Shown here: one piece after another, positions 506-59,996 of the stretch
Layout of the letters: every line of letters starts with the position of its first letter
How positions within the stretch are numbered: position 1 is the first letter of the stretch
Origin: Cyanidioschyzon merolae
Taxonomy: Eukaryota
Reading direction: 5' to 3' (one strand)
NCBI GenBank assembly: GCA_000091205.1
Contig: AP006490.2
Length of the DNA stretch: 64,000 bases
Made by a program: the position numbers and the translations under genes
Notes under the pieces: generated by a model
Told to the model about the DNA's origin: nothing
What the model saw: only the letters and a program-made list of their open reading frames with translations
The model's database searches: none

Positions 506-2577
506 ACATGGAAAAGCGTATCGGGCACGGATTTGAGTCAAAGCAGCGATCGCTGCCAGCGGAGAGAGCGTAAACGCTTCGCACGAAGGCAACGTAGATG
601 GATCGAAATCTCTCCGCATGTTCTTCAGCGTGGATCGCCTTCCAGGACTCGTTTCGTCGTGGATTGCATTGCGTTCGACAAATCCTATGTCGAATGGAAT
701 AGCGTGCGTTTGCGCTTGCACTTGCGGCGGACACAGTACTAGCCGTTGTGATCGTGAAGAGAGCAGGCAGCGGACACTGGGTACGGCGCCGGGCGGGAAA
801 CATTGGAGTGCACCGCGAGGAGCCCTCTTTACCCGCCGAAGGCATGTACCGAGCAGTGAAGAAAACGTTGATGCGCCACGGGCTGCCCCTGGAGTGGAAG
901 GCGCGCTAGACGTATAGAGACTCTCTTCTACATCCAAGAGTGTTCATTGCGAAAAGCTTTCCACTGCTGCATACAAAGAAAATGACCACGGTAAGCGATA
1001 CGTTGGTCGCGACTACTCTCTATGTATCAAATGCATCGACAACTGCGGAAACCGCAAAATCATGACTTTAAAACTGCCATCTACATCCTTCCACTGCTGA
1101 TCACGGGGCCGGAAGGAAAAGACAGATCATCGTATTCAGAGCCGGAGGTAAGAGACAGGCAAGTATGCAGGAGTGGGAAAGCCCGCAAGTACTGGTGCTG
1201 ACGACATTAAGAGCAGGCCCAAACTTTAGAGTCCACACTCGTGTTAGGCAAGTGGACCTCTTGCATGACAGCCGGGCACGGGTGTAACAATATGTCCGAA
1301 GAATCCACAGGCGCTCACGAATGAACCAGACCTGTCTGGATTGTATGCCCATCCGAATCGCATGCTTCCTCCGTCGAATGTGTGATCAGCTCGACTTGCC
1401 CGTCAGGTGCATCCTTCAGGGCACTCATGCTCGGCTGGTGTCGTTCGTCGGAAGCAAGCTAGATGCTGTTCGTGGACGAACGCTGCGACGCCCACCTTGC
1501 CGGGTCGGAACGCGACTCAAACGATGCACACCCGTCAGCTCCGATACGTTCCAAGACAGTCTCGCATGTGCATCAAGTGTTTTGCTTAGACGCCCTTCTT
1601 CGCCTTCGTCGCGTGCGGTCATTTGTTCCTTCCTCCGCCTCGAGGCTCGGTACAGGTTTCACACGAACCTCTTTCAACACCGGTTCATGGAGCGCTTCCG
1701 TATCCCCGGCTGCGGTGCCAAGTGCCTCCGTGGGTTTCTCTTGAAGCTGATGAACGTGCTCTGCATTTCGAGAAAACTCGACTCGCTTCTGCGGCAAAAG
1801 CCGTTCGGCTGCGCGCAGTCGTTGGCGGAAGTACAACCACGTACCAGCGAGAAGCAACACCGTCACCCCGTACGATAGCCATACTTCGGGGTACGCTCGA
1901 GTGATGTCAAACACACCGATTCGTGTTGACTCAGGCTCGTTACTCGGATAGCTTGAAGGCTCTGCGTCAAGCGGTGTGGCGCCCCGCTCTAGCGTTGTCG
2001 CAGCTCCAGTGCGGGTCTCAAGGGGGCTACAAAAAATGAGCCCCTGCCCTAGAGCGAACTTTTTCACAGTACAGCCGGCTTCGTACATATACGACCAGAG
2101 CGACATGGCCTCGATCATTAACTTACGAAAAGGTCACCAGACCCTATCCATATCTTCGCTCGTAACCAGCCAAGTGGGTGCGTTCTGCGAAAGCGTTTGT
2201 CACTGGCGGGCAGCATCATCGAAAGCGCCGCTGTGGCGTCGTGGCTTGCAAGTCCTGTTAGTGTCTTTCAACTCAGTATGTGCAAGCACCACCCCTGTGG
2301 TGTACAGTAAGAGATCGAAATCACGATGCAATGTACCGCATAGATCGTAGAAGAACTGCGTGTTGGATATCTATTCTTTACTGAACAGTGACGGAGGACT
2401 GCATTCTCCTCTGAGGTCAGTTACACTACAGCATTCAGGTGGTTGAGGACCACTGAAAGAAAGAAGCATACGCGCTCCGCATCATAAACCGATATTCTTA
2501 ATGAATGCATGCTACCAGTCGTAGAAAACGACCGACTGATCACTTTGCGTTAGGCGAAAGCGGCGATAATAGACACC

Positions 2578-2910
2578 ATGGGCGCCTCTGTTTCTCAACA
2601 GCTTGTTCGTGTGATCCTGAAAACACTGGAATACGGTTGTGAAAAAAGCGTCCTAGTTCACGTCCGCCCATTTTCCACCGAAATCGCAACGACAGCGTTC
2701 TTGGAACGTCACTATCCATATGAAGCACAGGAAAGTCGGTTTCGTTTTTTTATCGATGATACCTTCGTTGGGCGATTCTGTTGTAGCGTATATGGGTATT
2801 CGCGGAACAGGGTGCCCGTGTTATGCACGACTGAACTCGAAGAGAACGACGACATCATCATTTGTTGGAGCTGTAGTGGAATTATTTGTCGGCCTCAGTT
2901 CCGCCCGTAA
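2578..2910 (+). pseudogene. Tc1/mariner-like (DDE_3) transposase fragment
   Basis: The translation LVRVILKTLEYG...FFIDDTFVGRFCCSVYGYSRNRVPVLCTTELEENDDIIICWSCSGII resembles Tc1 transposase (HTH, the first-D region 'sDEskF', then the ...VWG.FS.G region). It is ~45% identical to the fragment in the inverted-repeat arms (59067..59465 and 63092..63490). The ORF is truncated. Confidence 0.5.
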
Positions 2911-3299
2911 AGCAGGCCCGTACAACAGCACCAACGACTTTGTCGAATCATTGAGGACGTTTTCCTGACGTCTGGCGACGCCCTTACATTAGGAAAAGGT
3001 GGTATTTCACCATTACCCTTCGTGTTCGAGCTTTTGCTTACTCTATCGGGGTAGAGCAGCACTTCATTCTTCCGGACGCTCCGTGTTTCAACTGCATCGG
3101 ATCAGTGTTCTCCATCATGAAACATAACCATCGCTCCACTGGGCGAATCGCTAAATCGTCCAGCACACGGTGACATGCTGGGGCATATTTCCTCATTCTC
3201 GTGCAATCTCTTCTTCTTCTGGGAAGATCGTCACCTACTGGCATTAGAAAGTGCAATCATTTTCAGAACAAAGGAGAGAACGATCTGGGATGTACACTT

Positions 3300-3520
3300 C
3301 AGAGCGTCGAGAAGGAGACAAGGCAGCGGAGCGCTTTGGTGATAGAGAAGTATAGAGAGCTCGCAATGCAGCAAGTGGCACGGAGGGCACGAGCTCTACC
3401 AACCCCTGCACTGACGAGTTCCACCAAAGGCAATAAACGCATGGAGTTCGTGCACTAAGAATTCAACGCCGCCATCTATATCAGACGATATGCAATGCTG
3501 AAGACAAGACCTAGGGGCGT
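3300..3520 (+). pseudogene. Fanzor/TnpB-like RuvC-III remnant
   Basis: ...LTSSTKGNKRMEFVH then a stop, then EFNAAIYIRRYAM continues the RuvC-III signature (D/N-x-NAA-x-NI) seen intact in copies c and d. Broken by an in-frame stop. Confidence 0.5.
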
Positions 3521-3739
3521 GACGCGAGCCAACGTTATGAAGCAGTCTCTCAGGCTCGAAGTGTGTCTGGATGAAACCCGAAACCGATAGCATCGATCTG
3601 GTCGAAAAGTGCTGGAAGGTGGCGTCTGCGCGTGGGTATGCATTTACCCCACATTGTCGTACAAAATACTTGCGCCAATCATATGTAGTTCCCTTGCGCT
3701 TTCACCTGCTCTCTGTGGGCTATTCTTCGAGCAGTATGC

Positions 3740-5677
3740 ATGGGGGTCTGGTCGGACTTTCGAAAATTTCTTGAAGACGGTGCTTTCTTCAACCAGAATG
3801 GGTTTAAACCCGCCTGGTTCGTATACGTGGTGCAGCTCTGGAGCCTCTTGCAAGCTTTCATTCTACCAGCTGCGCAAACCTTGGCGGGGTTGTTCGCGCT
3901 TCGTGTTGCTGCTGGAGTTTTGAGCCGTCTGCGGCCTTTTTGTAGACTGGCTGCTCATCATCTACCTAGTTTGAATTCTCTCTGGAATGATAGGCACAAT
4001 GGTTTGCCACTGGGCACGGACGCGGTCGCACTGCGGAAACGCGGTGCTGTCACCGACCGTGCTGCGGCCCTGGAACCGCTCGGCGCCAAACTAGCGCACT
4101 CCAGGGCGGAAAACGCTGGACGCTGCGACACAGTGGCTTGTGAAGCTGGCGGTGCACCGCGGAACGAGACTTGTATTGCTCGCTGTCGGTCATTTCTGGT
4201 AGAGCTACGACGAAAGCCTCAGCTTGGCTGGCCGAGGCTTCTCTATCGCGTTCTGCAGCTGCTCATTGTGCTGCGCGGGCTCATGCTTTTCAAGCATCTG
4301 GCGCTCACGAACGAGCCACGGACTTATTTTTATTCGACAAGTATCGTACCCCCTCCGTTATGCCCACTGAATGACCTGGAGCCCCTTATTGAGAAGGAGT
4401 CTCGTTTTCTGCAAGTGGAGTTACCTCGTTATGTCGCGCAGGTCCAGGAAGCGCTTTGGCAAGATGCCAGACGCTATGGTGAACCAGGCATCCGGAAGCA
4501 TCGCATTGTGCTGTACCGCGCCAGCTGCGACGGCTTGGGCAACCGCCTGACCGGCCTTGTATCAGCGTTCTACTATGCCTATATGAGCCAGCGTGCCTTT
4601 CTCGTAGACTGGAACGGCTGTGCAGCGGTCGTGAGCGGCACTCTCGAAGATCTGGTCGATCCTCCCTTCGCATGGAGTGCACGCGACCTACTCCGCGTCC
4701 TCGGTGCAGACGATCGCCAGCATGCTGCTCGAAGAAGCGATCAAGATACGGATCCGGTGCTCGTCGAATTTCAACGTATCTTCGGTGATGCCGGTGTGCG
4801 GCGTCTGTCGACTGCATACTGCAGGCCGTGTCCGGAGCGACGCCCTCTGCGAGACCTGGAACATATGCTGTGTGAGCGTTTTGTCGATGACTCGACCCCC
4901 GTTGTCGACTTTTACGGCACACACTGGACTGGAGCGACCATTCAGCATAATCCCTATTTCCGGACTGCTTCTTGCAAACTCTTCGGCAATGATGCCTTTG
5001 GCATCCTTTCGCGTGCGCTGCTCAGGCCAAATGCAGTGGTTCAGCGCATCGCGGCTCCGGTTCTTGAGGAAATGTCAAGGGCGGTTCTCACGATCGCTCT
5101 GCAAATACGACGACGTGACAGCTACGGCATCTCGGCGGCCATGGAGGAGGTCATGTGGCGCTGCGCACAACAGATTCGAGTGCTTCACTTTCAGCGACGA
5201 ACACTCGGAGACCGCTCGAACAAAGCATCGACACCCGGCCATTCGACTGGCCGAAACGAGTCCGGGATCGGGAATCAAACTTTCTACCGCACGCTTTTGT
5301 TCATCGCGGCCGATAACGATCGGTCCCGCAAGCGGATCGAGGACGGCAGTAGCAAGGAGCACACTGGCCTCCATGCGATCTATTTGTCAAGCCCGCTGAC
5401 CAAGACGGAGCTAGTCGGGATACAATACGCTTTTGCGGAGATGTACCTGCTGAGCAAAGCAGATGAGATTATTATCAGCCCGTATTCGAGCTTTGGCAGT
5501 TTCACTCATGGCTGGTCCAGTAAAGTACCATGGATTGCGCTGCGTTCGGGGAAGTGCATGCAAACGACTTCGAGCATGCCATGCGATGTGTATTGGTTTG
5601 GAGTGCAGCGCCTGTCATGTTTCAATGCGAGCATGCTGAGTAGTGAGATGGTGAACATGGATTCATGCTATGGTTGA
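3740..5677 (+). CDS. type II membrane glycosyltransferase, fucosyltransferase-like
   Basis: 645-aa ORF starting at a true ATG. N-terminal hydrophobic anchor (AWFVYVVQLWSLLQAFILPAAQTLAGLFAL). Has the G-L-G-N-R motif (ASCDGLGNRLTGLVSAFYYAY) and a C-terminal motif (YAFAEMYLLSKADEIIISPYSSFGS) typical of alpha-1,2/alpha-1,6/O-fucosyltransferase folds. Family assignment is tentative. Confidence 0.55.
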   Translation: MGVWSDFRKFLEDGAFFNQNGFKPAWFVYVVQLWSLLQAFILPAAQTLAGLFALRVAAGVLSRLRPFCRLAAHHLPSLNSLWNDRHNGLPLGTDAVALRKRGAVTDRAAALEPLGAKLAHSRAENAGRCDTVACEAGGAPRNETCIARCRSFLVELRRKPQLGWPRLLYRVLQLLIVLRGLMLFKHLALTNEPRTYFYSTSIVPPPLCPLNDLEPLIEKESRFLQVELPRYVAQVQEALWQDARRYGEPGIRKHRIVLYRASCDGLGNRLTGLVSAFYYAYMSQRAFLVDWNGCAAVVSGTLEDLVDPPFAWSARDLLRVLGADDRQHAARRSDQDTDPVLVEFQRIFGDAGVRRLSTAYCRPCPERRPLRDLEHMLCERFVDDSTPVVDFYGTHWTGATIQHNPYFRTASCKLFGNDAFGILSRALLRPNAVVQRIAAPVLEEMSRAVLTIALQIRRRDSYGISAAMEEVMWRCAQQIRVLHFQRRTLGDRSNKASTPGHSTGRNESGIGNQTFYRTLLFIAADNDRSRKRIEDGSSKEHTGLHAIYLSSPLTKTELVGIQYAFAEMYLLSKADEIIISPYSSFGSFTHGWSSKVPWIALRSGKCMQTTSSMPCDVYWFGVQRLSCFNASMLSSEMVNMDSCYG

Positions 5678-8600
5678 GGCGCACTGCCTTGTGCTCGACG
5701 CAGACGAACGCTGCCCAGACATGACCGGGTGTATCCGAATGAATAGGAGTCGTTCAAAACGTTCTGCGTAGAGCTGTGAATTCGGGGACACCTGGACTAG
5801 GACGCCTGTTCTGGTCCTGTTTGTTTTCTTGCAGGTACTCGGTAAAAGGAATGTTTCATGTTGATGGGAAAGAGGCTGCCGAGAGACTCTGTGGTGGAGT
5901 CACCGCCGGCCTGTGAAAACTGACCTTACCAGTCTTTCTCAGTATTGGAAGGGTAAGCGGGTGTATAAGCCACGCTTCCCGGAGTCCATAGTCTGAACAT
6001 GGTGTACCCCAATGAGAATGTATTAAACTCTATCTACACAGTTTGCTCCTCGTCAGCTCATTACAGTTTACAAATTTTTCTAAGGTATGCTGCGAGAAAA
6101 TGCAGAGTTTGTGAAGTTTCCGTATCTTTGGATTGAACATCGAGGAAGCGACGCAGGTACGCAAAGCCAAAAGCACCTATCTACCGCAGACTGTCGCGCG
6201 TTGCACAACTCAGTATCAGCTTCATAGGGAAACACGAGTGCTTACACTAGGTGCGACGGGCGTTCATCTGACTCGAGGCGACTTGATTCTAGAAAATGCT
6301 AGCCCTTCACACGGGTAATCCAAGTAGGGCAAACGTGGGTTGGTAATGAAGAAATAAGCGAACATAGCGACGACAGCAGTCCGAGCGGTGATTCCGTCGC
6401 ATGGTCTCTTACAAATCCGCACAGAGACAGTGTTTCTGAACACCGCGTACTTCGTCGAGGCACTGACCGTCGATTCTCCTTCGCATAGAGTTTTGTGCTG
6501 TTCTCGGACAGTGTGGCTCTCCACCTCTCAAAGTCGGCAAGGCGTATTCAGCTAGGATTCGCGTTGAGATGCTTTTCGTGTCGACCGATTTTCTCTGGTT
6601 CAATCCAGTCGAAGAGGTATTCGACTGTTGGTGTGGAAAGCCGTTTCTACGCTCATGTATTGAGAAAAGTTCCGTCTGCATACGGGGCACCTTTCTTCAA
6701 CAAGACGTTCTTCGGAACCTTCACCAGCATTGAACTGATTTTTTGCGTTATTGCTCATGCGTGGGCGGAACCAGAAAGGTGCGCTTCGGTCCGAGCGCTT
6801 GCTCGCTGGGAGAAAATCACGAAACGCAACGTGGAGTATAGTAGGTAAGCAGATGCAAAATGATACTTTCAGTCGGGTCGTCCACCCAGAAATTCGGATT
6901 CCTGAGAGAAACGGATACGGGTTACAGTGACCATATCAATGCTACACTGCCAAATAGAGGAGAAGGAGAAGAAAACGCCGGGCATAGAAAAGATACGATC
7001 CTTCCAAAAAGAAGACATGGAGGAACAGGAAGCATGAGCTCGCTTAGAAGCTGGGCGCAACTATGGGTCGCAAAGCCTCTTACTCGAGGAACGCTTGCCT
7101 TGCGCCACCCGCCGTGAAGCAGCTCGGCGAGCAACTGGTCACAGCAGTTCCAGTCACGTGGCTACAAGCTATCCATATTTCTCACTAATTTTTCGATGAG
7201 GCCTATGTGCGACAACAACAGCTGCTTTTCGGGGTGGACGAAGCGAAATGGCCGGATCGTTGGATCAGGGATTTCCTGACACAATTTCCTGGATACTTTA
7301 AAGCGTCACCGTGCCCCGCTGACGATCGGAATATATCCAGCGCAGGTCGGAAAAGTATCAAATCGATCGATGAGATTCGTTCTGAACCGGTCAAGATGTG
7401 CGAACCGAGAACCTTTTTGATGAACTTGGATTCCAGGCTGAAGAGTATACTGCCCGTTCCGTGAGCTCCACAGCACAAGGACAATGCCGAAGATCTGAAC
7501 GGAAACCATGTGAAGATGCTCTGCTACTCCAGGGCTCCATATTCTCGGAGTTTATATCTGACAGACACCAGTCAACATTCCAAAATGTGGAATGAAGGCG
7601 TCAGAACGCATGCCGACACCCCGTGCATCGTTTCGAGCGGAGGGCGGTGCTTTGTTTGCATCATTCAGCGAGGACGTGAGCTTCCGCATCGCTCATGCGG
7701 ATGACCCTTGGCAGTGGTATCTGAGGGTGCGCGGGGGTCGCCCGCGGTGTCCGTTGTACGGGAGCGAGTAGCTTGCATTCACCAATTTCTCCAACGGGTT
7801 GGAACGGGAAACGACGCACAAGTTGCGACGTTCGGTGGTATCTAAGGGCGCTGGTCGTGTTGGTGCGCGCCTGGGATGCACCCCTGGTCCATCGCCACGC
7901 TCGTGTTGAGAGCTCTGGGATTCATGCTCTCCGCTGCCAATCGACGAATTCGGGGCGGTATTCACGCATAACGTGCACGGTTGCACGCTGGAACTACGAG
8001 AGAAGGAGAGCGTGAAACGTAGCCAGCTGATGGAGATGGTGCTCGGTAAGCTAGCCAAGCATTACGTGGCGAGGAGTTTGAATACGATTGGCTTGCAATG
8101 ACGTGATTCCACCATCAAGAATGCACCCTAGAGGATTTTTCTCTGGGGTCTGAACGGTTCGAGCAGTATCCAGAAAAGTCTCGTGTTTTCTGAGCGTGTG
8201 GCGGCTTTGAATTTTGCAAAGTCTCGAAGAAGTCGTTTGGAGCTCGATTTGGGCCTTTTCTGATGCGTTGAAAACTTTCGAAGAAAAAAGGCAGTGCTCA
8301 GAAGCAAGAAAATTGGTTTCTCACCTAGTGCCCGGCACTGGTAGAGCACGGTCAGCGATCGAGCAAGGCTGGAGCACCCCATATATATTCCGGAACCGGA
8401 TTTTCCTGACGATTGGAGAACGCTAATAGTGGTTCATATTCGATATTACAGAGTATACGCAGGGCCTGGAAAAGGGTCGTCTTGGTTTATAACGCGTTGG
8501 GTGAAAATGCTCAGCTTTGTATGATTGCCATCACCCGCCTAGGCTCTGCGGGTCGCGCAACATACTCGTTAATGCCACGTTCCTCCGGGGGATTCCGGAT

Positions 8601-15317: not shown

Positions 15318-15441
15318 CGGCTGGCCTGCAGTCAAGCCCCATGCGGTGCGTCGCCACTCGTCCTGAGTACGACAACTAGGACCCAGTGAAAGTGCGTTCC
15401 GAGGCAATGCTGTGGATACGTGATCTCCGATAATGCCGAAT

Positions 15442-16463: not shown

Positions 16464-16964
16464 TCAATCGCTCGTAAGCTCGTTGACGCTCCAGTCCTCG
16501 TACGCGCCGTTCGGCAAGTGTCGTCGAATCTTCAACGGTATCTTCTTTGCACGAAGTTCTTTCTCCGCTATCAGCAGTGGATCGCTTTCACCCTCGAGGT
16601 CAACCAGCACGGGGGCTCCCAAACTGATCTGCAGAGCACGCGCGCCAAGCACGCGTGCGCGTTCGTACTTGGTCAGGAAAGGAGTCGTCACTCTATTCTT
16701 TAGGTCCGACTGGTCTTTGCTCCAGTGGCTTGATTCTCGAGCAACCTTCTCATTGTCCCCAGCGTATATCGTTGGCTTTTGCTCCTGCTCCCCGTCAGGG
16801 AGTACTTCGGCATCGATCTCTGTTTCAGGAACGGACTCTTTCAGCTCCTCTGACTCTTCCTGAAGTTCCTCACCCTCATAGTCATCGCCATAGTCATAGG
16901 GCAACTCGGGTTCAGCTTCCTCGTCTTCGATATAGTCATCTACGTCTTCCTCATCGGCTGCCAT
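16464..16964 (-). CDS. RPB6: DNA-directed RNA polymerases I/II/III subunit RPB6/RPABC2
   Basis: C-terminus [66 protein letters not shown] is canonical RPB6, preceded by the usual acidic N-terminal tail ([16 protein letters not shown]...). The track ORF extends 48 codons upstream to 17108; I take the start as the internal Met. Confidence 0.85.
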
Positions 16965-18249: not shown

Positions 18250-19096
18250 TCGGCCTCTTTAAAATAAGTTGCACTGCTTCCTCGAACCGCAAAAGCAAAT
18301 CAACGACTCAGCCGGTTCTCCCGGTAGTTTCGACCACGGCTTCAAACACGAGGAAATTTTGCCTCAAAGCGGCTGCTCCAGCCGCACCGCAAGAGGCGCA
18401 CCCCACGGAGCTTGCAACCCTTTTGGACGTAGCTTACAATCAGTTGGCTCGGACTTCCTTTCGGTGCAGCTATTCCCATTCTAACCATGGCTCGAGGCCG
18501 CATCCGCTCTTGTATTCTCTAACTGCACTTGAGTTCCACCCTCAGATGCGTATCATCAAATGCTTTTTCGCAGTTTATGGCGGATGCATTCGAAGTGCGT
18601 TCATTTTCAAACATAAAAAATCCAAGGGAAATCTATGGACATCGAAGGCGGGGATCCTCAAGGGCCGTCATTGCCGAGTCCCAGAAGAAAAAACGAAAAA
18701 ACGTCTTATCGCCTACCATCGAGTAAAAAAAGCAAGCGACGACGGCGAAGAAGAAGATGGGAAATAGATGAGAAAGGGTGCTCGCCCGACAGAACGATGA
18801 AGAGACTGTGGTAGCACTGAACCCACCACTTCGAGCAGTCCGTGTAACGGTGAGTCCAACCAGCAGTGCCGCACGGAGGAAGCTCGTGAACCGGGACATT
18901 AACGCTGCCACCAGTACCAGGACATGTGCGGTGCTGAAGACGAGACAACAGGAGCAGATGCGATCCAACTTTTTGGGGCCAGACTCATAGGGTCGACGTG
19001 TGCGCGAGGAAAAACTGAAACCAAAAGCAGGCGGCTCGTACAACTGCCTGGGAGGCGTCTGCGCTTGAGTAGATCTATATTGACCCTCCGTGGTGG
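18250..19096 (+). mobile_element. Fanzor/TnpB-like element remnant (copy e), 5'-truncated
   Basis: ORF 18778..18990 reads TVVALNPPLRAVRVTVSPTSSAARRKLVNRDINAATSTRTCAV, a decayed RuvC-III matching TVVAYRSRVLAILALMSSTRGNKRMEFVNRDFSVAINIRTCA of copy c. The upstream DNA at 18500-18700 aligns with 45800-45960. The 3' module is hairpin CAGGC..GCCTG followed by GGGAGGCGTCTGCG at 19027-19063. The 5' boundary is approximate. Confidence 0.5.
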
Positions 19097-19378
19097 TGAA
19101 ACGTTTTCGTTATGCTGACAAATATAGGTAAGTTTCGTTGAGTGGAGGATCAAACGCGCAATCTACGCAGATCAACGGGGCATGCGTCGCACTTCCACAC
19201 GGGCGTCACCGGAATGCGCGCCATTGCGGTCGGAGAACTCCACGTTCCGCGTGCAAAGGCGGACGCGTTCGCTGCGCTCCTGAGTGCTCAAGTTCCGCAA
19301 CTGGTTTAGGAGCCCTTTCGACGTCACGCAGGCTCTGTATTGGAAAGAGCTACTTCTAGGGCTGTCCAAGAACTTCCC

Positions 19379-22198
19379 ATGGATGTACGTGAAGCGGTTG
19401 ATCTGCTGACGCCGTTTCGCGTACTACACCTCGTTGCAGCTGCGCTTTGTGCACAGGTGCCATGTAACCCACAGATTGACGGAGCAACTGGAACTAACGC
19501 AGCGGTGCAAGAGCGACGCGCCCTCACCTGCTTACACTTGCTCCATGTCGCTCGTGCTGGCCCAGCGGAGAATTTTGACTGGCGACTGAGCAGTCCTGAC
19601 ACATACTTTCCAGCACGCTCTGTACTAGACAGGTTGCCGTCGGCTGAGAGGGAAGAACTCCAACACTTTGCAGACCGCTGGGTAGAGCTTACTCGGCACG
19701 TTTTGAGCGAGTCTGTTGACGTTCTCTACGACGCCTTTGAGGTGCTCTTGGGTGACTTGTTCGTGAGTGTGCCGCTCTCACTCGGTGATGTCGTGCTCGG
19801 TTCGCTGCAGGTTGACGAGAGCTTTCAGTCACATGAGCAATCAGATACATTTGAGCGCGGTATATGCACTGATAGAGTGCTCCAGCGAAGTGCTTTCGCC
19901 GGGGGAAGCGCACTAGGCACTTTTGTACGTCGTTGTCGCGTTGCTTTTGAATCGCTTCCATTTGAGGCCGTCGCTCAACTGCATCGGGAAGTGACGCTTG
20001 ACCATACGAAGGCACCAAGCACTCATTATGCAAACGTGGTACATACCTCCTTCGACTTTAGTGCAGTTCGACGCGCGGCGCATCGTGCAGTGCGTGCGAT
20101 TGTTATTGCTGGTGGCCCGCCGCATCCGCGGGACCGAGCGCTTCTGAAGGCATCCACTGACCCAGCGGCTGAGCTCTTCCGCTGGGTTGACGCCGTATGG
20201 AGGCGGAACCTGAACGAGGCGAATTTCGCCCTCCGGCGTTACAACGATCTGGCAATAGCCCGATGCAATAGAGGTATGTTCGATAGCGGCCCTCAGGAGG
20301 CCGCTGTTGCGGTTGCGGGCATGCTGGTACTGATGGGACACCCGGTGCAGGCGAGAATTGCACTAGAAGAGAGCATTCGCGTTGCGCAGCAGACCGGTGA
20401 TCATGTAACGCTCTCGAGAGCCTTGACGTGGATAAGTCGCCTCACGGAAAATGAGCGCAAGCGGCTGCGATACCTCAAAGACTGCTGGACGCGTTCTCCA
20501 AAACTCAGCCAAGAGAGCGTATTAGCTCGCTTGGCAGCTGCGCACACGCTTCTGAATATGAATTTTCCCCTCGGAAATCATACAGCTACCAAGTTTCGGA
20601 AATGGCGACGAATTCTTCGGCACATGGAGTGCGCATACGCTGCGAGCGTGAACTCTCCAGAGGACACACATCTGGTGCTCGCATCGATGCACACATTGGC
20701 AGTCCTGTCTGGACAGCCGCTTGTCCTTCGAGAGTCGCTTACGGAGATGCGGCTCCGGTCGCTGCTCCCAAATATCAGGGAATTTACAGAAGATGGAGAT
20801 CACCGCACTCACGATGAAACTACCTCGAGTCTCTCGTCTGTAGATCATGATTCGTGCGAATCGAACGCAAAGAAAGCTGGCGCCGGCGCAAACTTTGGAG
20901 AGCATGAACGCTCGAGGCATCCTCTTGGAGAGCTCCCCGTGCAGTTACATCAATCCGCCTCGATTGATGATGGACCGGAAGATGCTGCTCATGTCGATGC
21001 GAATTTTCTACTGACCTCGAAGGAGCTTGGATTAGCCCCTACCGAGCATCTCGCGAGAGCTTTGTGCGCTGCAAGCGCCGAAACGCTCATGAGGCATGGC
21101 ATTTTGCGAGCTTCCTGGACAGCTGCTTTGCCGCTTCGGAACGCTTGCGCTCTTGTACGAGCGGCTGACGATGAGCCCGAATCGTCGCCCGTTTTGCGCA
21201 TTTTGCACCAGTGCCTCGCTCGGATCGCGTTCGAGTATGCGGTCGCCCGAGAGGAATGGCAGATCGCTGCCGCCTGCCTAGAGCGTCTAACATCATTCGC
21301 ACCTCCTATCGTGCAAGAGAAGTATCCAGATTTGGCCGGAAACTCCGCATCGACGGCTACCTTGAACGCCATATTAGATGTGCTCGACTGTCATGCGCGA
21401 TTCTGGCTCTGTCGTGCACAAGTCTCTGAAGCATTATATTTCGCGGAGGAATTCGCTCAAACCGCTAACAAATATGCAGCCCTTGGTTGCCGCTCGCGTC
21501 TCGTTGACGCTTTGCTTCTGCAAGTTGAGTGCTATCTGAGCGCCGAGATGAATGCGCGGGCGCTGGCGGCGTCGCTGGCAAGCATATCTCTCGCTGAATC
21601 CATTGGCGACGAGCCGCGGCGTTTTCGTGGTATTCTGTCCCTTGCACAGGTCCGATTAGCAATGCAAGCCGTGGACTCCGCATCTCGGTTGCTTGAGTCG
21701 GCAGACTCTATGCTTCTGGATCAGAAAGATTCTGCGTCCCTCGGTAGTGCAGCTCTCTGGAAGTCTTTGGTCAGTGAAGAGAGCTGTTTGTCACATTCAG
21801 ATAGGGCTCGAGTCTGGATGATGTTGGGCGGAATCGCGCTTGTCAAGATGCAGTCGCAGCAATCCGTTAACACCGGAGAGGCAACCAGCTGCTTCGAGAT
21901 GGCGTTCAGGACAGCGGACTTGGTCGCCCTTCAACGCGAGGCGTTGTTCGCGCTCCTGCATACCCGCGGTGCCAAGACGGATATCGCGGCCATGACAAAC
22001 TTCGAATTTAAGATGCAGTGCGTACGTCGACAGCAGAGCAGCTGGGCGGAAGCTCTGCAAGTTTCCGGCTCCACCGAATGGGAGCAAAATGTATGTTGCT
22101 ACCTCCAGCATACCCGAACAGAATTTCATGAATCCAGGAATTCAGAGAGCGATCTTTACATGGAAGTCGCGGCGGCAAACCGGAAAAGCGAGTGTTGA
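19379..22198 (+). CDS. large alpha-helical/TPR-like protein, possibly anaphase-promoting complex subunit 5-like
   Basis: 952-codon track ORF starting at a TTG; the first ATG at 19379 gives ~939 aa. The segment ...CNRGMFDSGPQEAAVAVAGMLVLMGHPVQARIALEESIRVAQQTGDHVTLSRALTWISRL resembles the ANAPC5 signature as I recall it (..AIRIAQE..DHVCL...L.WL). TPR-like helices follow in the C-terminal third. The coding call is strong; the product assignment is tentative. Confidence 0.75.
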   Translation: MDVREAVDLLTPFRVLHLVAAALCAQVPCNPQIDGATGTNAAVQERRALTCLHLLHVARAGPAENFDWRLSSPDTYFPARSVLDRLPSAEREELQHFADRWVELTRHVLSESVDVLYDAFEVLLGDLFVSVPLSLGDVVLGSLQVDESFQSHEQSDTFERGICTDRVLQRSAFAGGSALGTFVRRCRVAFESLPFEAVAQLHREVTLDHTKAPSTHYANVVHTSFDFSAVRRAAHRAVRAIVIAGGPPHPRDRALLKASTDPAAELFRWVDAVWRRNLNEANFALRRYNDLAIARCNRGMFDSGPQEAAVAVAGMLVLMGHPVQARIALEESIRVAQQTGDHVTLSRALTWISRLTENERKRLRYLKDCWTRSPKLSQESVLARLAAAHTLLNMNFPLGNHTATKFRKWRRILRHMECAYAASVNSPEDTHLVLASMHTLAVLSGQPLVLRESLTEMRLRSLLPNIREFTEDGDHRTHDETTSSLSSVDHDSCESNAKKAGAGANFGEHERSRHPLGELPVQLHQSASIDDGPEDAAHVDANFLLTSKELGLAPTEHLARALCAASAETLMRHGILRASWTAALPLRNACALVRAADDEPESSPVLRILHQCLARIAFEYAVAREEWQIAAACLERLTSFAPPIVQEKYPDLAGNSASTATLNAILDVLDCHARFWLCRAQVSEALYFAEEFAQTANKYAALGCRSRLVDALLLQVECYLSAEMNARALAASLASISLAESIGDEPRRFRGILSLAQVRLAMQAVDSASRLLESADSMLLDQKDSASLGSAALWKSLVSEESCLSHSDRARVWMMLGGIALVKMQSQQSVNTGEATSCFEMAFRTADLVALQREALFALLHTRGAKTDIAAMTNFEFKMQCVRRQQSSWAEALQVSGSTEWEQNVCCYLQHTRTEFHESRNSESDLYMEVAAANRKSEC

Positions 22199-32026: not shown

Positions 32027-33739
32027 AAAAGCTCCAAAGGAATGATCCGTTTTCCCGTTAGTGCGGGCGACTTGCTAACCAACGGCTGTGACCGCAGCGC
32101 CAATCTGCATTGCGCTCGGCATTACTGGATCTCATGCGCAGCCCAGGATTCCGCATCTCGACGAGATGGATTTTTCCATCAACGCAGAGTTTTTGATGTA
32201 TTTTTTTCAGTACATGGTCTCCCGAACGCAACAATGGTGCGTGACGGACTATGGTGTCGTACCCAAACTTCTGCACTCGCATCCAACAAAGGAAAATGTA
32301 TTGCTGCAGTTATTGCGTTTCCGAACGGTGCGGGTGGCAGAAGATCGACGCGTGTTTGCTGTACAATTGAGTCGCTGAAAGGCTGAGTGCTCATTTGATC
32401 AACAGTATTATCGATTATCCCGGAGAAATTGCGTGAAAATTCTGGAAATGTGTGAGTTCAGGGGCCTTAACGGAACCCTAACGAGAAAAATGCATCAAGG
32501 TTACGTTCCAATTAGCGCTGCTTGGTGCAAGAGCGCTCTAGCCCGAAAATGTCAATGAGCCAACTAGATGTCTCGCAGTCTGGTGTCTAATACCGGCTCA
32601 ATTCTCTGTCCAGTTTTCGCACGTCGGGCGCAGAAGCCGGTGCAGCAAAAGCTGCCCCATTCTACGCCATGGGAATATATTACTTTTGCAGTTACTATGA
32701 ACACACTGGCTCGAGACGCATGAGCATTCGTGGAAACTGCTCAGAACCCCCGAATGAGACAAATTTTTCTAGTTCTGCAGATGCTCCGAACGACTCGTAA
32801 AATGCCCTCGCTTGCGGTGCTCAAATCGAGTGGAGACATGCTGCCGACGGATAAAAAAATGGTCAAGGCCATTGATCCAATGTACCCCTAGTGGACCTGC
32901 ATGCTTGTTTCGTACGAATCCATACAATAAACTAATAACGTGATTGTGCCCCGATCGAGAGCCATAATCAGAGGGAATGGCGATATTCCCCCAGATAGTA
33001 CCAACTTCCATGTAGAAGCAAAAGCAATGCCCACATACGAGTATGGTTTTGCGATTCGCAAGATTTCGAACCTAGCAGTGAGCGACCTATGCATGTAATT
33101 TCGAGTCAGCCGAATCTGTATCATTGCCATGAACTAGTTATGATGTGTTTACATAGGTAGCTTATTCGTGTAGATCGGGAATCGCGAAGCGTTCTAGACG
33201 ACAAATAGTTTGTATAGGCTCGTGCTCTACAGAGCTGAACAGGTCTATGAAGTCTATTATGGGTCATCTGAGCAGGTTATGAAAAGGCGTATGAAAGGTG
33301 CCTTGCGAAAAGGGTCCGGTGGTGCGGAGATGGTTAAGGACTTTGCTGCTGGAACGTTTAGGGCCACTACACGAAAGCTTCGTGGATTGTACCTACTGGT
33401 ATTCTTCGCCTGGTTTCGCATCATGCCTATACGACAAGCAATACGTAATTTATAACAGAAAAGTAAATTGAATTGAGCTCATTTGCTGAAAACCTTTCTA
33501 TGAAGAATACTATGTGGTTTCAGATGACAACGTTGAAGCGGTCGCTGTAAACAAAATAAGGCCTTTGTTAGAACGACGACTCTTGGTATCTGTTAATGAG
33601 GTACCACCTTTCAAACTCTGAGCGGTTTCGCTTATCATGCTCTCAAAAGCATTTAAGGTGGGTGCCGGCATTGACATCGTCTGTGTGAATATTTGCATTT
33701 TTCGTTGGACATAAAGGCGGCGGTCAATGATACAGACTG

Positions 33740-34450
33740 CTTCACAACTGTGGAGGGCAAATATGTCTCCCTACCCGCAGACCCGTCTCGCTCTTTTTCA
33801 ACCGGCGTCTTGCTATTGTTTTCAGCTTCTCCTTTTAACCTTCGAGTCTGGGAGACTGTCCGACAAAGTTGTCTCGCGTCAGCTCCTCGGGGCCCGACTT
33901 CAGCAGTATACATCGTCGGCTATTGATGGAGGCTTGAAGACTTAGTCCACGAATTCTATGCGTTCACTGCCTCAGGTGGAACTCATCTATGCAAGGATTG
34001 CTCGAACTCGAGCTCACTTTGCCGCCGCGGCCTCGTTATTGTCCAGTCGGGCAAGCCCTCTTTCACGACTTTCTCTCCCGTACTACTTCGTCGTCGTCAC
34101 TCATTCGTCTTCGCTCGATGGTTGGCAAGAAGAGGATTTTCGTCTTTTTCCTAGTCGCACGCGATGACGGCACTCCAGGATCTCAGACTTCCATTCCGAG
34201 AACATTCCCTTGGGTTTTTTGTTTTTGAAAATGAAATCACTTCGAACAAGTATGCTATAAACCTCGAGAAAGCATTTGATTATGCTCACCAGGGGGTGGG
34301 ACACAATTGAGGTGGAGGAATAAAATCCCTTCGTGGACGAATATCCGCTAACGGTTAGAGCTAGAATAAGAAAACCAATACGGAATTGAAGCCGTAAATG
34401 CCAGTGCATACTCTCCGATTCTCCACGCTTGATCCGCTTTTTCGCCATAT
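33740..34450 (-). mobile_element. Fanzor/TnpB-like element remnant (copy b), 5'-truncated
   Basis: Minus-strand frames match copies c and e: IIKCFLEVYSILVRSDFIFKNKKPKG vs IIKCFFAVYGGCIRSAFIFKHKKSKG, and YTAEVGPRGADARQLCRTVSQTRRLKGEAENNSKTPVEKERDGS vs the copy c tail. The 3' module on the minus strand (plus 33745-33805) reads GACGGGTCTGCGGGTAGGGAGACATATTTGCCCTCCACAGTTG. Confidence 0.5.
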
Positions 34451-45649: not shown

Positions 45650-46387
45650 GAGAGTTGGATAATGTTTTCGGTAATTTTGGGATCCCTTGTTCGTGGTCGT
45701 CGCGAAACATCTGGAGTCCGATGACTTGACAAATTCTGTCGGCAAAGTGTTGAAGGAGCCAACCTCAAAAGACAGCCGAGATTCTATAACGACGTATGAA
45801 TGCCAGAATCCTTCAAGTCTTTCACCTGAATTGCGTTCCAGCCTCAGGAGACTACAATCAAATGCTTTTTCATGGTTTATGGAAGATGAGTGCGAAGTGC
45901 GCTCATTTGAAGAAATAAAAATCCAAGGCAAAGGTATAGAAGTTGAAGCCCACGATCTTGGGGGCCCGCTGGCACCGGATTTGGAGAAACTACGAAAAAA
46001 AATCCTCATCTCGCCGACAATCTTGCGAAGAATAGCGAACGACGAAGAAGAAGAGAGGAGGTAGACGAGAAAAGGTGTTTGCCCTACTGGACAATGACGA
46101 GACTGTAGTGGCATATAGGTCACGAGTTCTAGCAATCCTTGCATTGATGAGTTCAACCAGAGGCAATAAACGTATGGAGTTCGTGAACCGAGACTTCAGC
46201 GTCGCGATCAATATCAGAACATGTGCGTTGCTTTACACGAGTCCCGAGAAGCTGGCCCAATTCCTTCTTCGTGGGACAACTTCTCAGGCTCGAAGTGTAC
46301 AAGGAGAAACTGAGACCGATAGCACTCGACCGGTCAAAAAGGACCGGGAGGTGTCTGCGTGTGGATATTAGTTACCCTACACGGTCG
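45650..46387 (+). mobile_element. Fanzor/TnpB-like element remnant (copy c), 5'-truncated
   Basis: ORF 46075..46371 carries an intact RuvC-III signature (GNKRMEFVNRDFSVAINIRTCA). The 3' module is CCGGTC-AAAAAG-GACCGG hairpin at 46330-46347, then GGGAGGTGTCTGCGTGTGG, ending ~46387. Frameshifted relative to copy d in its tail (46223..46507 frame). Confidence 0.55.
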
Positions 46388-46606
46388 AGACACATTTTTT
46401 GTTTCGTTGGCAGTGAACTGCAGGAATCGAGCGAGTGGTTCCGCGCTCCACTCTTATTCAAGACAACGTTCCTCGCGGATTCCCAATCACAGAGAACGAG
46501 AGGTTGACAAGATTCAAGTATTGAAAACTGTCGCTCCTTACTTAAGCACACACTTAAAGCTCGAAGCCTTTGAGTGAACGAAGTGCAGAAGAGTCTGTTT
46601 GCCTCT

Positions 46607-55572: not shown

Positions 55573-56337
55573 TTATAGCGCACATCTAGACATGCTTGCT
55601 TTGATCGCGCGCTCGAGAAGAACCAAGTGCGACTCTAGTACCCACCGTCTGTGCCCCCACAGCGCCGACAATGGCTCGGATGATTGACTGCGTTCGCCTA
55701 TGATGATGCAGTAATCTGAGGTTTCCCTCAGGTGATAAACCGATAGTTGGAAGCCGCGTGAACCAGTGATGCTCCACATCCTATGTCCGAAATGATTCAA
55801 ATTCATGCAATCATCATCTCGTGACGTGTATCGTGCGAAACGGTGCCGGGGAGCGCTCAGAACATCGAAAATTGTATCCGCAGCATACGCTGCAGATGCG
55901 AGAAAGAGGGGCCCTATCATATCACTTACGTTATTTTCACCGCTGTCCGTTGCAGCGCAATAGCTAGCCAATACTTTGGAATCGCTCTTTCGCAGGAGGA
56001 GCGCCCGTCTAACGTTTCGGTTACGAAACGTCTCGTCTATCCAGCTCGCGAAAATTGAGCTAATATCGTGCTTCCCCTCCGATGAGGCCTCTGACGAAGT
56101 TTTCGGCGCGTCTGCGATCGCGTCCCTACTTTCAGCGGAGACTTGCGAAACTGACAGACCGGTGCAGTGCGCTTTCGTTTCGCCCGGCAGCTCGTTCGCC
56201 GGCTCCTGCTGCGGTGCCTGAGGTGTGTCGTTACTTAGTGCTTCGAGATTTGCTGGTAGTCCACCACGGTTCTCAGTCCCAAAGTCCCTTTCAACGGCCA
56301 AGCAGGGAAAACAGGTCCTGAGTAACCGCGAAGTCAT
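55573..56337 (-). CDS. hypothetical protein (~254 aa)
   Basis: 285-codon track ORF starting at a TTG (56430) that overlaps the last codons of the Fanzor-like ORF in another frame. The first ATG is at ~56337 (MTSRLLRTCF...). No recognisable domain. Lies immediately downstream of, and co-oriented with, element copy d. Confidence 0.4.
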   Translation of the reverse strand: MTSRLLRTCFPCLAVERDFGTENRGGLPANLEALSNDTPQAPQQEPANELPGETKAHCTGLSVSQVSAESRDAIADAPKTSSEASSEGKHDISSIFASWIDETFRNRNVRRALLLRKSDSKVLASYCAATDSGENNVSDMIGPLFLASAAYAADTIFDVLSAPRHRFARYTSRDDDCMNLNHFGHRMWSITGSRGFQLSVYHLRETSDYCIIIGERSQSSEPLSALWGHRRWVLESHLVLLERAIKASMSRCAL

Positions 56338-56422
56338 GCTGAGAACCCGCTGCCGACAGCGAACGCCTTTCAAAAGAAAAACGTTGCTGCCGGCGGTGGA
56401 CAGGAGCAGCGAGGAAGCCGCC

Positions 56423-59698: not shown

Positions 59699-59996
59699 GT
59701 TGAAAGAGCGCAGCTGGGAACATCGACTGTGTCGCAGTTCGCGCGCCCTGTACCGCCATTGAAATCATCGCGATCGCCGCGCTAGCGCGGGACACCATCG
59801 ATCCGATCCGCATGGCAGCTCGCGGGACGTCATCGATCCAACGGAAAACTATTTTTCGACGGACTGCTCGCATCATGAGGGTCTTTGAGAGCCTCAAATA
59901 TTAGGCTGAAGTGAAGTTTCGCTAACAATTTGGGTCCTTGCTGCTTTAAGTTGAGGTGTTTTGGTTTAGTGAGCACCTCATCTTGGGACGAATTGG

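What the first reader, a model, noticed from the sequence alone, without database searches (positions are those of the whole stretch)
2578..3740. Fanzor-like elements end 0-290 bp upstream of, and co-oriented with, the next host gene in 4 of 5 copies
Copy a ends at ~3660 and the fucosyltransferase-like ATG is at 3740, both on +. Copy e ends at ~19096 and the APC5-like gene starts at 19340/19379, both on +. Copy c ends at ~46387 and the MT-A70-ZZ gene starts at 46574/46607, both on +. Copy d ends at ~56425 and the hypothetical gene runs 56430/56337 down to 55573, both on -. Only copy b lacks a gene within 300 bp. Position is expected for surviving TEs in a compact genome, but 4/4 shared orientation has a chance of ~1/16. 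There are several possible explanations. The elements may insert selectively into promoters or 5' regions in one orientation (TAM- or structure-guided, as for IS200/605-like elements). They may supply promoter or 5'UTR sequence to host genes. Or host promoter read-through may transcribe the 3' RNA module.
Basis: seen in the sequence. Interest (0 to 1): 0.7.

Follow-up and report, generated by a model that had tools for sequence, protein, structure and literature searches.

The report
Fanzor transposons abut host start codons

Summary
The window is C. merolae 10D chromosome 8. The repeats are decayed copies of the known Fanzor1 family CMe-1A, the "253-copy WSV486-like repeat".

- a ends at 3681, 58 nt before the CMH013C ATG.
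- e ends at 19120, 258 nt before APC5.
- c ends at 46412, 194 nt before MT-A70.
- d ends at 56352, only 14 nt before the CMH030C ATG.

Two copies were missed: g (about 7492-8430, opposite to its downstream gene) and f (62850 onward).

The window statistic is weak. Copies a, e, d and b lie between divergent genes, where co-orientation is automatic.

The pattern generalises. In 52 independent non-redundant loci from C. merolae-like metagenome contigs, the next gene is co-oriented in 37 and opposite in 15 (p=0.003). Within 300 nt the split is 34 to 5 (p=2e-6). The median gap to the ATG is 88 nt, and 13 gaps are 40 nt or less. A start codon lies within 100 nt of the 3' end in 11 of 18 loci, and of the 5' end in 1.

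The mechanism is unresolved: strand-specific targeting or selection, with host transcription leaving the element tail. No held paper reports this bias.

Also seen: three inversions relative to Cyanidiococcus, with all six breakpoints at Fanzor copies.

The parts
2290..3681 (+). Copy a: a short composite derivative. It has a 5' module (2290-3191, homologous to d 59686-58788 and to f) plus a Fanzor C-terminal and 3' remnant (3324-3681).
   Evidence: The same composite structure recurs at L027, L031 and L053.
3682..3739 (+). 58-nt spacer between the 3' end of copy a and the CMH013C start codon.
3740..5677 (+). CMH013C, a fucosyltransferase-like host gene.
   Evidence: Exact match to BAM79719. Pfam XG_FTase.
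7492..8430 (+). Its 3' end is estimated. It faces the 3' end of sufS, so it is opposite to its downstream gene.
   Evidence: tblastn at 28-34% identity over 7492-8020. PIDEFG motif at 7937 and RD-like motif at 8102.
16464..16964 (-). RNA polymerase subunit Rpb6 gene. It makes the gap that holds copy e a divergent one.
   Evidence: Pfam RNA_pol_Rpb6, E=7e-11. An ortholog is present in Cyanidiococcus.
18510..19120 (+). Copy e: the recognisable 3' part of an older subfamily.
19379..22198 (+). APC5 (CMH018C). Its ATG lies 258 nt after copy e.
   Evidence: Exact match to BAM79723.
33722..34325 (-). Copy b: the recognisable 3' part. Its 3' end is at 33722.
45823..46412 (+). Copy c: the recognisable 3' part.
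46607..48487 (+). MT-A70/ZZ methyltransferase gene. Its ATG lies 194 nt after copy c.
   Evidence: Exact match to BAM79731.
55573..56337 (-). CMH030C, a hypothetical protein. Its ATG at 56337 lies 14 nt after the terminal stem-loop of copy d.
   Evidence: Exact match to BAM79734. An ortholog is present in Cyanidiococcus.
56352..59707 (-). Copy d: the most complete copy and a pseudogene (RuvC-III reads NRN, with frameshifts). Bases 58708-56354 are homologous to canonical copies. Bases 59707-58710 are a different 5' module.
56352..56394 (-). Terminal stem-loop of copy d.
   Evidence: DNA fold -15.7 kcal/mol, z=-4.1, 0 of 200 shuffles as good.
59997..62300 (+). PP2C phosphatase gene, flanked by the inverted pair d and f.
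   Evidence: Pfam PP2C. Inverted relative to Cyanidiococcus.
62850..64000 (+). Copy f: its 5' part is about 100% identical to d 59707-58557 in inverted orientation. It runs off the window.

Best explanation
What it is. The repeats are old copies, mostly pseudogenes, of the known Fanzor1 transposon family of C. merolae. This is CMe-1A of Bao & Jurka 2013, and I infer (the sources are not linked in any paper I read) that it is the same repeat as the 253-copy, 3.2-kb, WSV486-related repeat of Nozaki 2007. An element is essentially one long Fanzor ORF followed by a non-coding tail of about 100 nt. In the younger copies the tail ends in a long stem-loop.

Placement. The family is not placed at random. 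Its 3' tail ends a median of 88 nt upstream of the start codon of a gene on the same strand, and 40 nt or less upstream in a third of cases. Its 5' end stays several hundred nt from its neighbour.

Most likely mechanism. The element integrates strand-specifically into the narrow interval between a host promoter region and the host ATG. It may also persist only there. The host upstream region then comes to lie 5' of the element. The host mRNA must start within, or be read out of, the element's 3' tail. In TnpB and Fanzor systems this is the part transcribed outward across the element boundary to make the guide RNA.

Shown here: family identity by motifs, element ends, positions, orientation bias, 3'/5' asymmetry, independence from the window, and absence of the elements at the syntenic sites of Cyanidiococcus.

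Inferred: oriented targeting, outward transcription, and use of that transcription by host genes.
For: Independent sample. It holds 54 non-redundant loci from C. merolae-like contigs, none overlapping the window.
- Next downstream gene: 37 co-oriented, 15 opposite, 2 with no gene called (p=0.0032).
- Within 300 nt: 34 against 5 (p=2.4e-6).
- Co-oriented gaps: median 88 nt, interquartile range 27-141; 13 are 40 nt or less. Opposite gaps have a median of 669 nt.

Asymmetry. In the 18 loci where both neighbours are known, an ATG lies within 100 nt of the 3' end in 11 and of the 5' end in 1 (p=0.006). The ratio d3/(d3+d5), where d3 is the 3' gap and d5 the 5' gap, is below 0.2 in 12 of 15 loci (p=1e-6).

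Context. Nine loci are divergent, eight tandem (six co-oriented, two opposite) and one convergent. Element-free divergent gaps are the shortest class, with a median of 267 nt.

Controls.
- The gene caller shows no strand bias (94 plus, 90 minus).
- The second and third downstream genes are not co-oriented in excess.
- Neighbours are real genes by Pfam. For RPL37a the domain starts at residue 4, and its ATG is 34 nt from the element end.

Age. Co-oriented copies close to an ATG are no older or younger than the rest: body identity to the consensus is 0.895 against 0.891.

Empty sites. Cyanidiococcus has no Fanzor at the syntenic sites. Its genome is only 0.59% repeats, against 12.7% in C. merolae (PMC9812998).

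Established knowledge. TnpB and Fanzor guide RNAs are transcribed across the element's 3' boundary (Karvelis 2021; Altae-Tran 2021; Saito 2023; from my own knowledge). The C. merolae repeats are reported as transcribed (PMC1955436).
Against: - No transcript data were available, so no host transcription start site has been placed inside an element.
- The terminal 130 nt is not better conserved in copies that abut a co-oriented ATG: 0.829 against 0.820 identity, p=0.57. It is less conserved than the coding body (0.82 against 0.89).
- No target motif was seen in the flanks.
- No transposase is encoded, and the 5' ends are heterogeneous and unresolved.
- All copies are old, so insertion preference cannot be separated from selection.
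- 15 of 52 copies break the rule.
- Within tandem gaps alone the orientation bias is 6 to 2 (p=0.29).
- About half of the repeats carry the repressive H3K27me3 mark (PMC5405695). That sits awkwardly with a promoter role next to genes such as RPL37a.
- The sample consists of the 80 best-scoring, most intact copies.
- Gene calls come from a codon-usage ORF caller.
Confidence: 0.45

Rival explanations
1. Random insertion followed by selection. Elements land anywhere, but the compact genome keeps only those whose outward or read-through transcription runs in the sense direction into the neighbouring gene. Copies that send antisense transcripts into a gene, or that split a terminator, are purged. 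No targeting is involved.
For: All copies are old, about 11% from the consensus in the coding body and 18% in the tail, so selection has had time. The genome is compact: element-free divergent gaps have a median of 267 nt. The orientation bias is partial, at 71%.
Against: Selection alone does not explain why 3' ends pile up within about 100 nt of the ATG when roughly 1 kb is available in tandem gaps (d3/(d3+d5) below 0.2 in 12 of 15). It also does not explain why the shortest and most constrained class, divergent gaps, is the most occupied and convergent gaps the least (9 against 1). There is no age difference between conforming and non-conforming copies.
Confidence: 0.3
2. Erosion after insertion. 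Elements inserted anywhere upstream and took over transcription of the gene. The now useless DNA between element and ATG was then deleted in this streamlined genome, which brought the tail up against the start codon.
For: Seven of 48 copies lack the terminal hairpin, as if deletions had run into the element. Spacer lengths vary widely.
Against: The spaces on the two sides add up to about the size of element-free gaps. The Cyanidiococcus empty sites (1052-1647 nt) are not clearly longer than d5+d3 in C. merolae. This rival still requires the element to drive the gene.
Confidence: 0.1
3. No biology: a chance pattern in one subtelomeric window of a compact genome.
For: Inside the window only copy c is informative for orientation, and copy g is a counter-example.
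Against: An independent sample gives p=0.003 to 2e-6, and the strand and neighbour controls are flat.
Confidence: 0.03
4. The juxtapositions were created secondarily by the inversions that have Fanzor copies at their breakpoints.
For: There are three inversions relative to Cyanidiococcus in this window, and all six breakpoints are at Fanzor copies.
Against: For b, c, d, e and f the 3' junction lies outside the inverted segment, so the inversion leaves it unchanged. Only g's 3' junction faces an inverted block, and in the Cyanidiococcus order g would be co-oriented with Rpb6.
Confidence: 0.04

Closest known systems
Fanzor1 family CMe-1A of C. merolae (Bao & Jurka 2013, PMC3627910), which I infer to be the '253 copies of a novel interspersed repeat related to WSV486' of Nozaki 2007 (PMC1955436)
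   Same: Same organism. Length of about 3-3.3 kb, high copy number, about 80% identity to the consensus, no terminal inverted repeats, no target-site duplication, Fanzor D/E/RD motifs, and a 5' module that also exists on its own.
   Different: The papers call the distribution random or say nothing about position. The 3' terminal stem-loop, the start-codon proximity, the orientation asymmetry and the link with inversion breakpoints are not described in the papers I could read. The Repbase consensus was not available for a direct alignment.
Chlamydomonas CRe-1/2/3: Fanzor1 carried by non-autonomous Helitron2 elements (PMC3627910)
   Same: Only a Fanzor ORF is encoded. The 3' ends are intact and carry a subterminal hairpin. 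The 5' ends are truncated or carry extra captured sequence.
   Different: No asymmetric terminal inverted repeat could be found. No TTTT target or target-site duplication was established. No Helitron Rep/helicase partner is known in C. merolae.
Bacterial IS200/IS605 elements with TnpB and omega-RNA
   Same: A RuvC nuclease ORF is followed by a structured 3' end whose RNA reads across the element boundary. They have subterminal hairpins, no inverted repeats and no target duplications. Insertion is strand-specific because the target is single-stranded DNA (established knowledge).
   Different: No TnpA was found here. No TAM motif was identified. Any strand bias here is relative to transcription units, not to replication.
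Transposons that target promoters in compact genomes (Tf1 of S. pombe, Ty1/Ty3, P elements, Helitron/Helraiser)
   Same: Accumulation just upstream of genes in gene-dense genomes (established knowledge).
   Different: Those are largely orientation-neutral and sit about 100-400 nt or more upstream. Here one particular end abuts the ATG at tens of nt, and the asymmetry is strong.

Membership tests
Fanzor1 / TnpB-like RuvC nuclease (motif of Bao & Jurka 2013) | RuvC-I aspartate | tested here: met
   The consensus reads 'GADPGNTNIITIA' in 30 aligned members. Window copy d reads 'GADPRNTN'.
Fanzor1 / TnpB-like RuvC nuclease (motif of Bao & Jurka 2013) | RuvC-II glutamate followed by [TS][TS], 125-275 residues after the aspartate | tested here: met
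   'VDEFRTSYTHHELGC' lies about 175 residues after the aspartate. Copy d reads 'IDEFRTT'.
Fanzor1 / TnpB-like RuvC nuclease (motif of Bao & Jurka 2013) | C4 zinc finger between the glutamate and the RD motif | tested here: not met
   The consensus has only two cysteines in this stretch (GC...KC). The second CxxC pair is absent. The family consensus therefore departs from the canonical motif.
Fanzor1 / TnpB-like RuvC nuclease (motif of Bao & Jurka 2013) | RuvC-III 'RD' motif | tested here: met
   The consensus reads 'VNRDFNAAINIRRCAV'. In the window, c and e keep RD, d reads NRN, and a and b have stop codons there, so those copies are pseudogenes.
Fanzor1 / TnpB-like RuvC nuclease (motif of Bao & Jurka 2013) | Profile or fold similarity to TnpB or Fanzor | tested here: inconclusive
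   No Pfam hit at E<=0.1. No hit to solved structures apart from noise. The AlphaFold model has pLDDT 36 and is unusable. Only weak precomputed PF26935 (DUF8286) hits exist. Membership rests on the motifs and on PMC3627910.
Fanzor1 / TnpB-like RuvC nuclease (motif of Bao & Jurka 2013) | Guide-RNA scaffold overlapping the ORF end and the 3' boundary | tested here: inconclusive
   A conserved non-coding tail of about 100 nt is present. All 39 complete ends have a strong predicted fold there (MFE of -8 kcal/mol or lower), and representative folds are stem-loops. RNAalifold found no covarying consensus structure, and Rfam gave no hit. No RNA data were available.
Helitron2-type non-autonomous element | Asymmetric terminal inverted repeats plus hairpins at both ends | tested here: not met
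   The 3' hairpin is present. No reverse-complement match of the pre-hairpin segment occurs near any 5' boundary.
IS200/IS605-like single-strand transposon | Encoded or partnered HUH transposase and a fixed target motif next to the left end | tested here: inconclusive
   The elements carry only the Fanzor ORF. The 5' ends fall into several unrelated modules, so no left-end target could be read.
Promoter-proximal, orientation-biased transposon placement | Excess of one element end next to gene starts over chance | tested here: met
   37 against 15 overall, 34 against 5 within 300 nt, and 11 against 1 for the 3' end against the 5' end.
Transposon-derived promoter (exaptation) | Host transcription start inside the element, and purifying selection on the donated part | tested here: inconclusive
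   Selection test: no excess conservation of the tail in copies that abut genes. The transcription start site cannot be tested with these tools.

The most novel reading that the evidence does not exclude
Fanzor1 elements in C. merolae are inserted strand-specifically at the transcription start or 5'UTR of RNA polymerase II genes, for example by using single-stranded non-template DNA or R-loops there, or by an RNA-guided step. They act as promoter traps whose outward-reading guide-RNA unit then serves as the 5' end of more than 100 host mRNAs. The same copies also drive the small inversions that distinguish C. merolae from Cyanidiococcus.
Probability: 0.25. Interest if true: 0.85.

Novelty: new variant of a known kind. 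Interest (0 to 1): 0.66.

Why it matters
What Fanzor elements do in their native eukaryotic hosts, and how they choose insertion sites, is still open. C. merolae is a minimal, genetically tractable eukaryote with homologous recombination, almost no introns and about 250 copies of one family.

A reproducible rule, tail against start codon on the same strand, gives a directly testable handle on three questions:
- whether insertion is oriented relative to transcription;
- whether the guide-RNA transcription unit feeds host genes;
- how about 5% of a streamlined genome is tolerated inside promoter regions.

It also has a practical side. 'Promoter fragments' cloned from upstream of C. merolae genes may consist largely of Fanzor tail. 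The repressive H3K27me3 reported upstream of some genes may simply mark these elements.

Tried and rejected
- Empty sites in close strains. Metagenome contigs carrying CMH013C are 99.2% identical to the window and contain copy a, so they are uninformative.
- Nucleotide-level empty sites in Cyanidiococcus. Intergenic DNA does not align, so only gene order and gap lengths could be used.
- Outgroup to polarise the inversions. The more distant contig L094 shares only MT-A70, FHA and ALG6.
- Structure route to test Fanzor membership. The AlphaFold2 model was too poor (pLDDT 36), so no fold search was run.
- Pfam and PDB sequence searches of the family found nothing.
- Rfam on the window gave no hit.
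- RNAalifold on 38 tails gave almost no consensus structure, partly because the two hairpin variants use different registers.
- A Helitron2-type asymmetric inverted repeat was sought at the 5' ends and not found.
- Defining the 5' terminus failed. At least six unrelated 5' modules exist, and coverage-based boundaries are unreliable there.
- Target motif in the 3' flank. Information content falls to zero about 13 nt after the hairpin and no motif follows.
- Exaptation signature. The tail shows no extra conservation in gene-abutting copies.
- Literature. No held paper reports the position or orientation of these repeats relative to genes.
- The sigma-70 promoter scanner was not used because it does not apply to a eukaryote.
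Full report
**Origin of the window.** Exact look-ups of translated ORFs identify the window as part of the 739,753-bp chromosome-8 record of Cyanidioschyzon merolae 10D. The matched genes include:
- CMH012C (1573-2118, minus) and CMH013C (3740-5677, plus);
- sufS (9188-10708, minus);
- APC5/CMH018C (19379-22198, plus);
- a UVR8-like gene, CPSF3, pontin, CMH023C, RF-1 and CMH025C;
- MT-A70 (46607-48487, plus), FHA1 and ALG6;
- CMH030C (55573-56337, minus).

Pfam adds three genes: Rpb6 (16464-16964, minus), a YbjQ-like gene (31679-32026, minus) and PP2C (59997-62300, plus).

**What the repeats are.** Self-BLAST and tblastn with a stitched translation of the best copy show one repeat family. Its conceptual protein carries the motifs GADPxNTN, (V/I)DEFRT(S/T) and NRDFNAAINI. 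These are the D, E and RD signature that Bao & Jurka 2013 used to define Fanzor/TnpB.

That paper lists one Fanzor1 family in C. merolae, CMe-1A. It has about 150 copies of about 3 kb, about 80% identity to the consensus, no terminal inverted repeats and an undetermined target-site duplication. Its 5' part also exists as a separate repeat.

[quoted passage not shown] White spot syndrome virus is one of the Fanzor1 carriers in Bao & Jurka's table. I take the two descriptions to be the same element.

Membership could not be confirmed by profile or fold. Pfam and PDB sequence searches found nothing, and the AlphaFold2 model was unusable. The consensus also lacks the second cysteine pair of the canonical zinc finger.

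**Anatomy of the 3' end.** I aligned many members fetched from C. merolae-like metagenome contigs. In the window region those contigs are 99.2% identical to 10D. The younger copies continue about 90-100 nt beyond the ORF stop. They run through a conserved 'GCCACTACTGTACAC' box into a terminal stem-loop, and homology stops 50-65 nt after that box.

The stem-loop has two sequence variants:
- CGTCGTTCGA-CTT-TCGAACGGCG;
- AACGTTTTTC-TTTT-GAAAGGCGTT.

A GT-rich tail pairs back onto the segment before the hairpin. All 39 complete ends have a strong predicted fold there (MFE of -8 kcal/mol or lower). Representative folds give z=-3.5 for variant 1 and z=-4.1 for window copy d. Information content falls to background about 13 nt after the hairpin.

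The older subfamily, to which a, b, c and e belong, ends in '...TTTTTTGTTTCGCTGAC' and has no significant hairpin.

**Checking the observation.** With these models the ends become:
- a: 3681;
- e: 19120;
- c: 46412;
- b: 33722 (minus strand);
- d: 56352 (minus strand).

The gaps to the co-oriented start codons are 58 nt (CMH013C), 258 nt (APC5), 194 nt (MT-A70) and 14 nt (CMH030C). Copy b is co-oriented with the YbjQ-like gene 1695 nt away.

Two copies were missed. Copy g is a diverged remnant at about 7492-8430 on the plus strand. It sits in the convergent gap between CMH013C and sufS, and so is opposite to its downstream gene. Copy f starts at 62850 on the plus strand and runs off the window.

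**Is it more than chance within the window?** Hardly. Between divergent genes, an element's 3' end faces a co-oriented gene whichever way the element points. Copies a (CMH012C/CMH013C), e (Rpb6/APC5), d (CMH030C/PP2C) and b (YbjQ/pontin) are all in divergent gaps. Only c is in a tandem gap, and g is a counter-example. The stated 1/16 is therefore not valid.

**Surrogate genome-wide test.** The finished genome itself could not be scanned, so I built a surrogate sample in these steps.
- A protein search with the C-terminal half of copy d returned 212 Fanzor fragments from hot-spring metagenomes.
- An alignment of 30 of them was used to fetch 80 loci with 10-kb flanks.
- These collapsed to 48 non-redundant loci with usable downstream sequence.
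- Six further independent loci came from contig look-ups.
- None overlaps the window, and none duplicates another even at low stringency.

Genes were called with a codon-usage log-likelihood model trained on the window's annotated genes. The model separates real ORFs from shadow ORFs cleanly. Thirty neighbours were checked with Pfam. Most had domain hits, including HSP70, RPS4, RPL37a, SUMO, Tim17, FtsZ, eIF5B, PGM, patatin and ClpB-like proteins.

**Results of the test.**
- The next downstream gene is co-oriented in 37 loci and opposite in 15 (71%, p=0.0032). Within 300 nt the split is 34 to 5 (p=2.4e-6).
- Co-oriented start codons lie a median of 88 nt from the element end (interquartile range 27-141). 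Thirteen are within 40 nt. Opposite genes lie a median of 669 nt away.
- In the RPL37a case the Pfam domain starts at residue 4, so the ATG is secure. It is 34 nt from the element end.
- In the 18 loci where both neighbours are known, the contexts are 9 divergent, 6 tandem co-oriented, 2 tandem opposite and 1 convergent.
- An ATG lies within 100 nt of the 3' end in 11 of those loci and of the 5' end in 1 (p=0.006).
- The 3' gap is under a fifth of the total free space in 12 of 15 co-oriented loci (p=1e-6).
- Element-free gaps measured with the same caller have medians of 267 nt (divergent), 1059 nt (tandem) and 922 nt (convergent).

Controls were flat. All called genes split 94 plus to 90 minus. 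The second and third downstream genes are 14 to 23 and 11 to 16.

Secondary, older copies found by chance in the flanks give 3 co-oriented (222-294 nt) and 2 opposite. The three co-oriented ones (in L027, L031 and L053) are short 'a-type' composite derivatives like window copy a, so all four known a-type copies sit upstream of a co-oriented gene.

**Interpretation.** The pattern is real and has two parts. Elements prefer gaps that contain promoters. Within those gaps, their 3' end specifically hugs a start codon.

With 40 nt or less left in a third of the co-oriented cases, there is no room for a separate core promoter plus 5'UTR. I infer that host transcripts start in, or pass through, the element tail. 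This matches a known property of TnpB and Fanzor elements: the guide RNA has to be transcribed outward across the 3' boundary (established knowledge).

The space on the 5' side has a median of about 400 nt. That is about the size of a whole element-free divergent gap. The element therefore looks as if it were inserted between an intact upstream region and the ATG.

I favour oriented integration into that interval, with tolerance provided by outward transcription. Three points support this over selection alone:
- the sharp peak next to the ATG;
- the over-use of the shortest and most constrained gap class;
- the lack of any age difference between conforming and non-conforming copies.

Several points weigh against the favoured reading:
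- There are no transcript data.
- No target motif was found.
- No transposase is known.
- The 5' ends are heterogeneous.
- The tail shows no extra conservation in gene-abutting copies (0.829 against 0.820, p=0.57).
- About half of the repeats carry H3K27me3.

Selection alone, or later erosion of the spacer, remain live alternatives.

**Comparison with a sister species.** Cyanidiococcus yangmingshanensis has 0.59% repeats against 12.7% in C. merolae, and shorter intergenic regions (PMC9812998). Its two syntenic loci contain no Fanzor sequence. They serve as empty sites at the level of gene order:
- sufS to APC5: 1052 nt;
- pontin/MT-A70: 1425 nt;
- PP2C to CMH030C: 1647 nt.

Unexpectedly, the window differs from Cyanidiococcus by three inversions. 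The inverted blocks are sufS..Rpb6, pontin..CMH025C and PP2C alone. All six breakpoints coincide with Fanzor copies: g and e, b and c, d and f. By chance this would happen about 2e-4 of the time, given 7 occupied gaps out of 20.

Pairs b/c and d/f are inverted, with their 5' ends facing the inverted block. Copies d and f share at least 1151 nt at about 100% identity. The 3' junctions of b, c, d, e and f lie outside the inverted blocks, so the inversions did not create the start-codon proximity. In the Cyanidiococcus order, g would sit upstream of, and co-oriented with, Rpb6. An outgroup contig could not polarise the events.

**Novelty.** The element family is known. I found no held paper that reports its placement relative to genes, and Nozaki 2007 calls it random. 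Promoter-proximal transposons are a known kind. One specific end abutting start codons, for a Fanzor family, is a new variant.

Noticed in passing
Window 9188-16964, 36431-44471 and 59708-62849, compared with L092 and L093: There are three inversions relative to Cyanidiococcus yangmingshanensis. All six breakpoints coincide with Fanzor copies (g/e, b/c, d/f), and the Cyanidiococcus loci have no Fanzor. Pairs b/c and d/f are inverted, with their 5' ends facing the inverted block. This fits recombination between copies. Pair g/e is in direct orientation and is not explained that way.
   Followed up: partly
Window 58557-59707 and 62850-64000: A 1151-nt inverted repeat at about 100% identity (copies d and f) flanks the PP2C gene. 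Other copies of the family differ by 20-30%. This suggests a recent inverted duplication or ongoing gene conversion, or less likely an assembly artefact. The repeat may extend beyond the window end.
   Followed up: partly
Window 83-499: Three tandem copies of a 139-nt unit (89-96% identical) lie upstream of CMH012C. They are also present in the metagenome strain L001.
   Followed up: no
Window 57335-57484; alignment A2 columns ~240-390: There are 75-nt tandem repeats inside the Fanzor ORF. They encode an acidic 25-residue unit (of the type ...KHEDEKEADPATQEVEDNDLVV...). The number of units varies from about 1 to 6 between copies, which accounts for part of the element length variation.
   Followed up: no
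Window 2290-3681; L027 ~11825-13226(-), L031 3270-4529, L053 ~15404-16809(-): A short (~1.3-1.4 kb) composite derivative joins a 5' module to the last ~350 nt of the element. It occurs at least four times. Each copy is upstream of and co-oriented with a gene, 58-294 nt away.
   Followed up: partly
Window 59707-58710 (copy d) against canonical copies such as L007 8264-9200: The 5'-most ~1 kb of d, a and f is unrelated to the 5' ~0.9 kb of most other copies. At least six different 5' modules exist in the family, while the 3' ends are uniform. This suggests one-ended or capture-prone mobilisation.
   Followed up: partly
Window 28054-33722 and 51501-55573: These are long gaps with lower G+C (0.45-0.50) and few ORFs. 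The first contains a YbjQ-like gene that is absent from the syntenic Cyanidiococcus locus. The second is 4.1 kb, against 1.2 kb in Cyanidiococcus. Both probably hold other decayed insertions.
   Followed up: no
38 aligned copies, last 950 nt: The coding body is closer to the family consensus (0.89) than the non-coding tail (0.82; p=1e-10). This suggests purifying selection on the Fanzor ORF during the family's spread. It agrees with Bao & Jurka's remark that some old copies keep intact ORFs.
   Followed up: no
Protein P0185 (alignment A2): A metagenome gene call reads from the Fanzor ORF straight through the tail into a downstream LEA-like ORF in the same frame. It shows how tightly the element and the host ORF are packed.
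   Followed up: no
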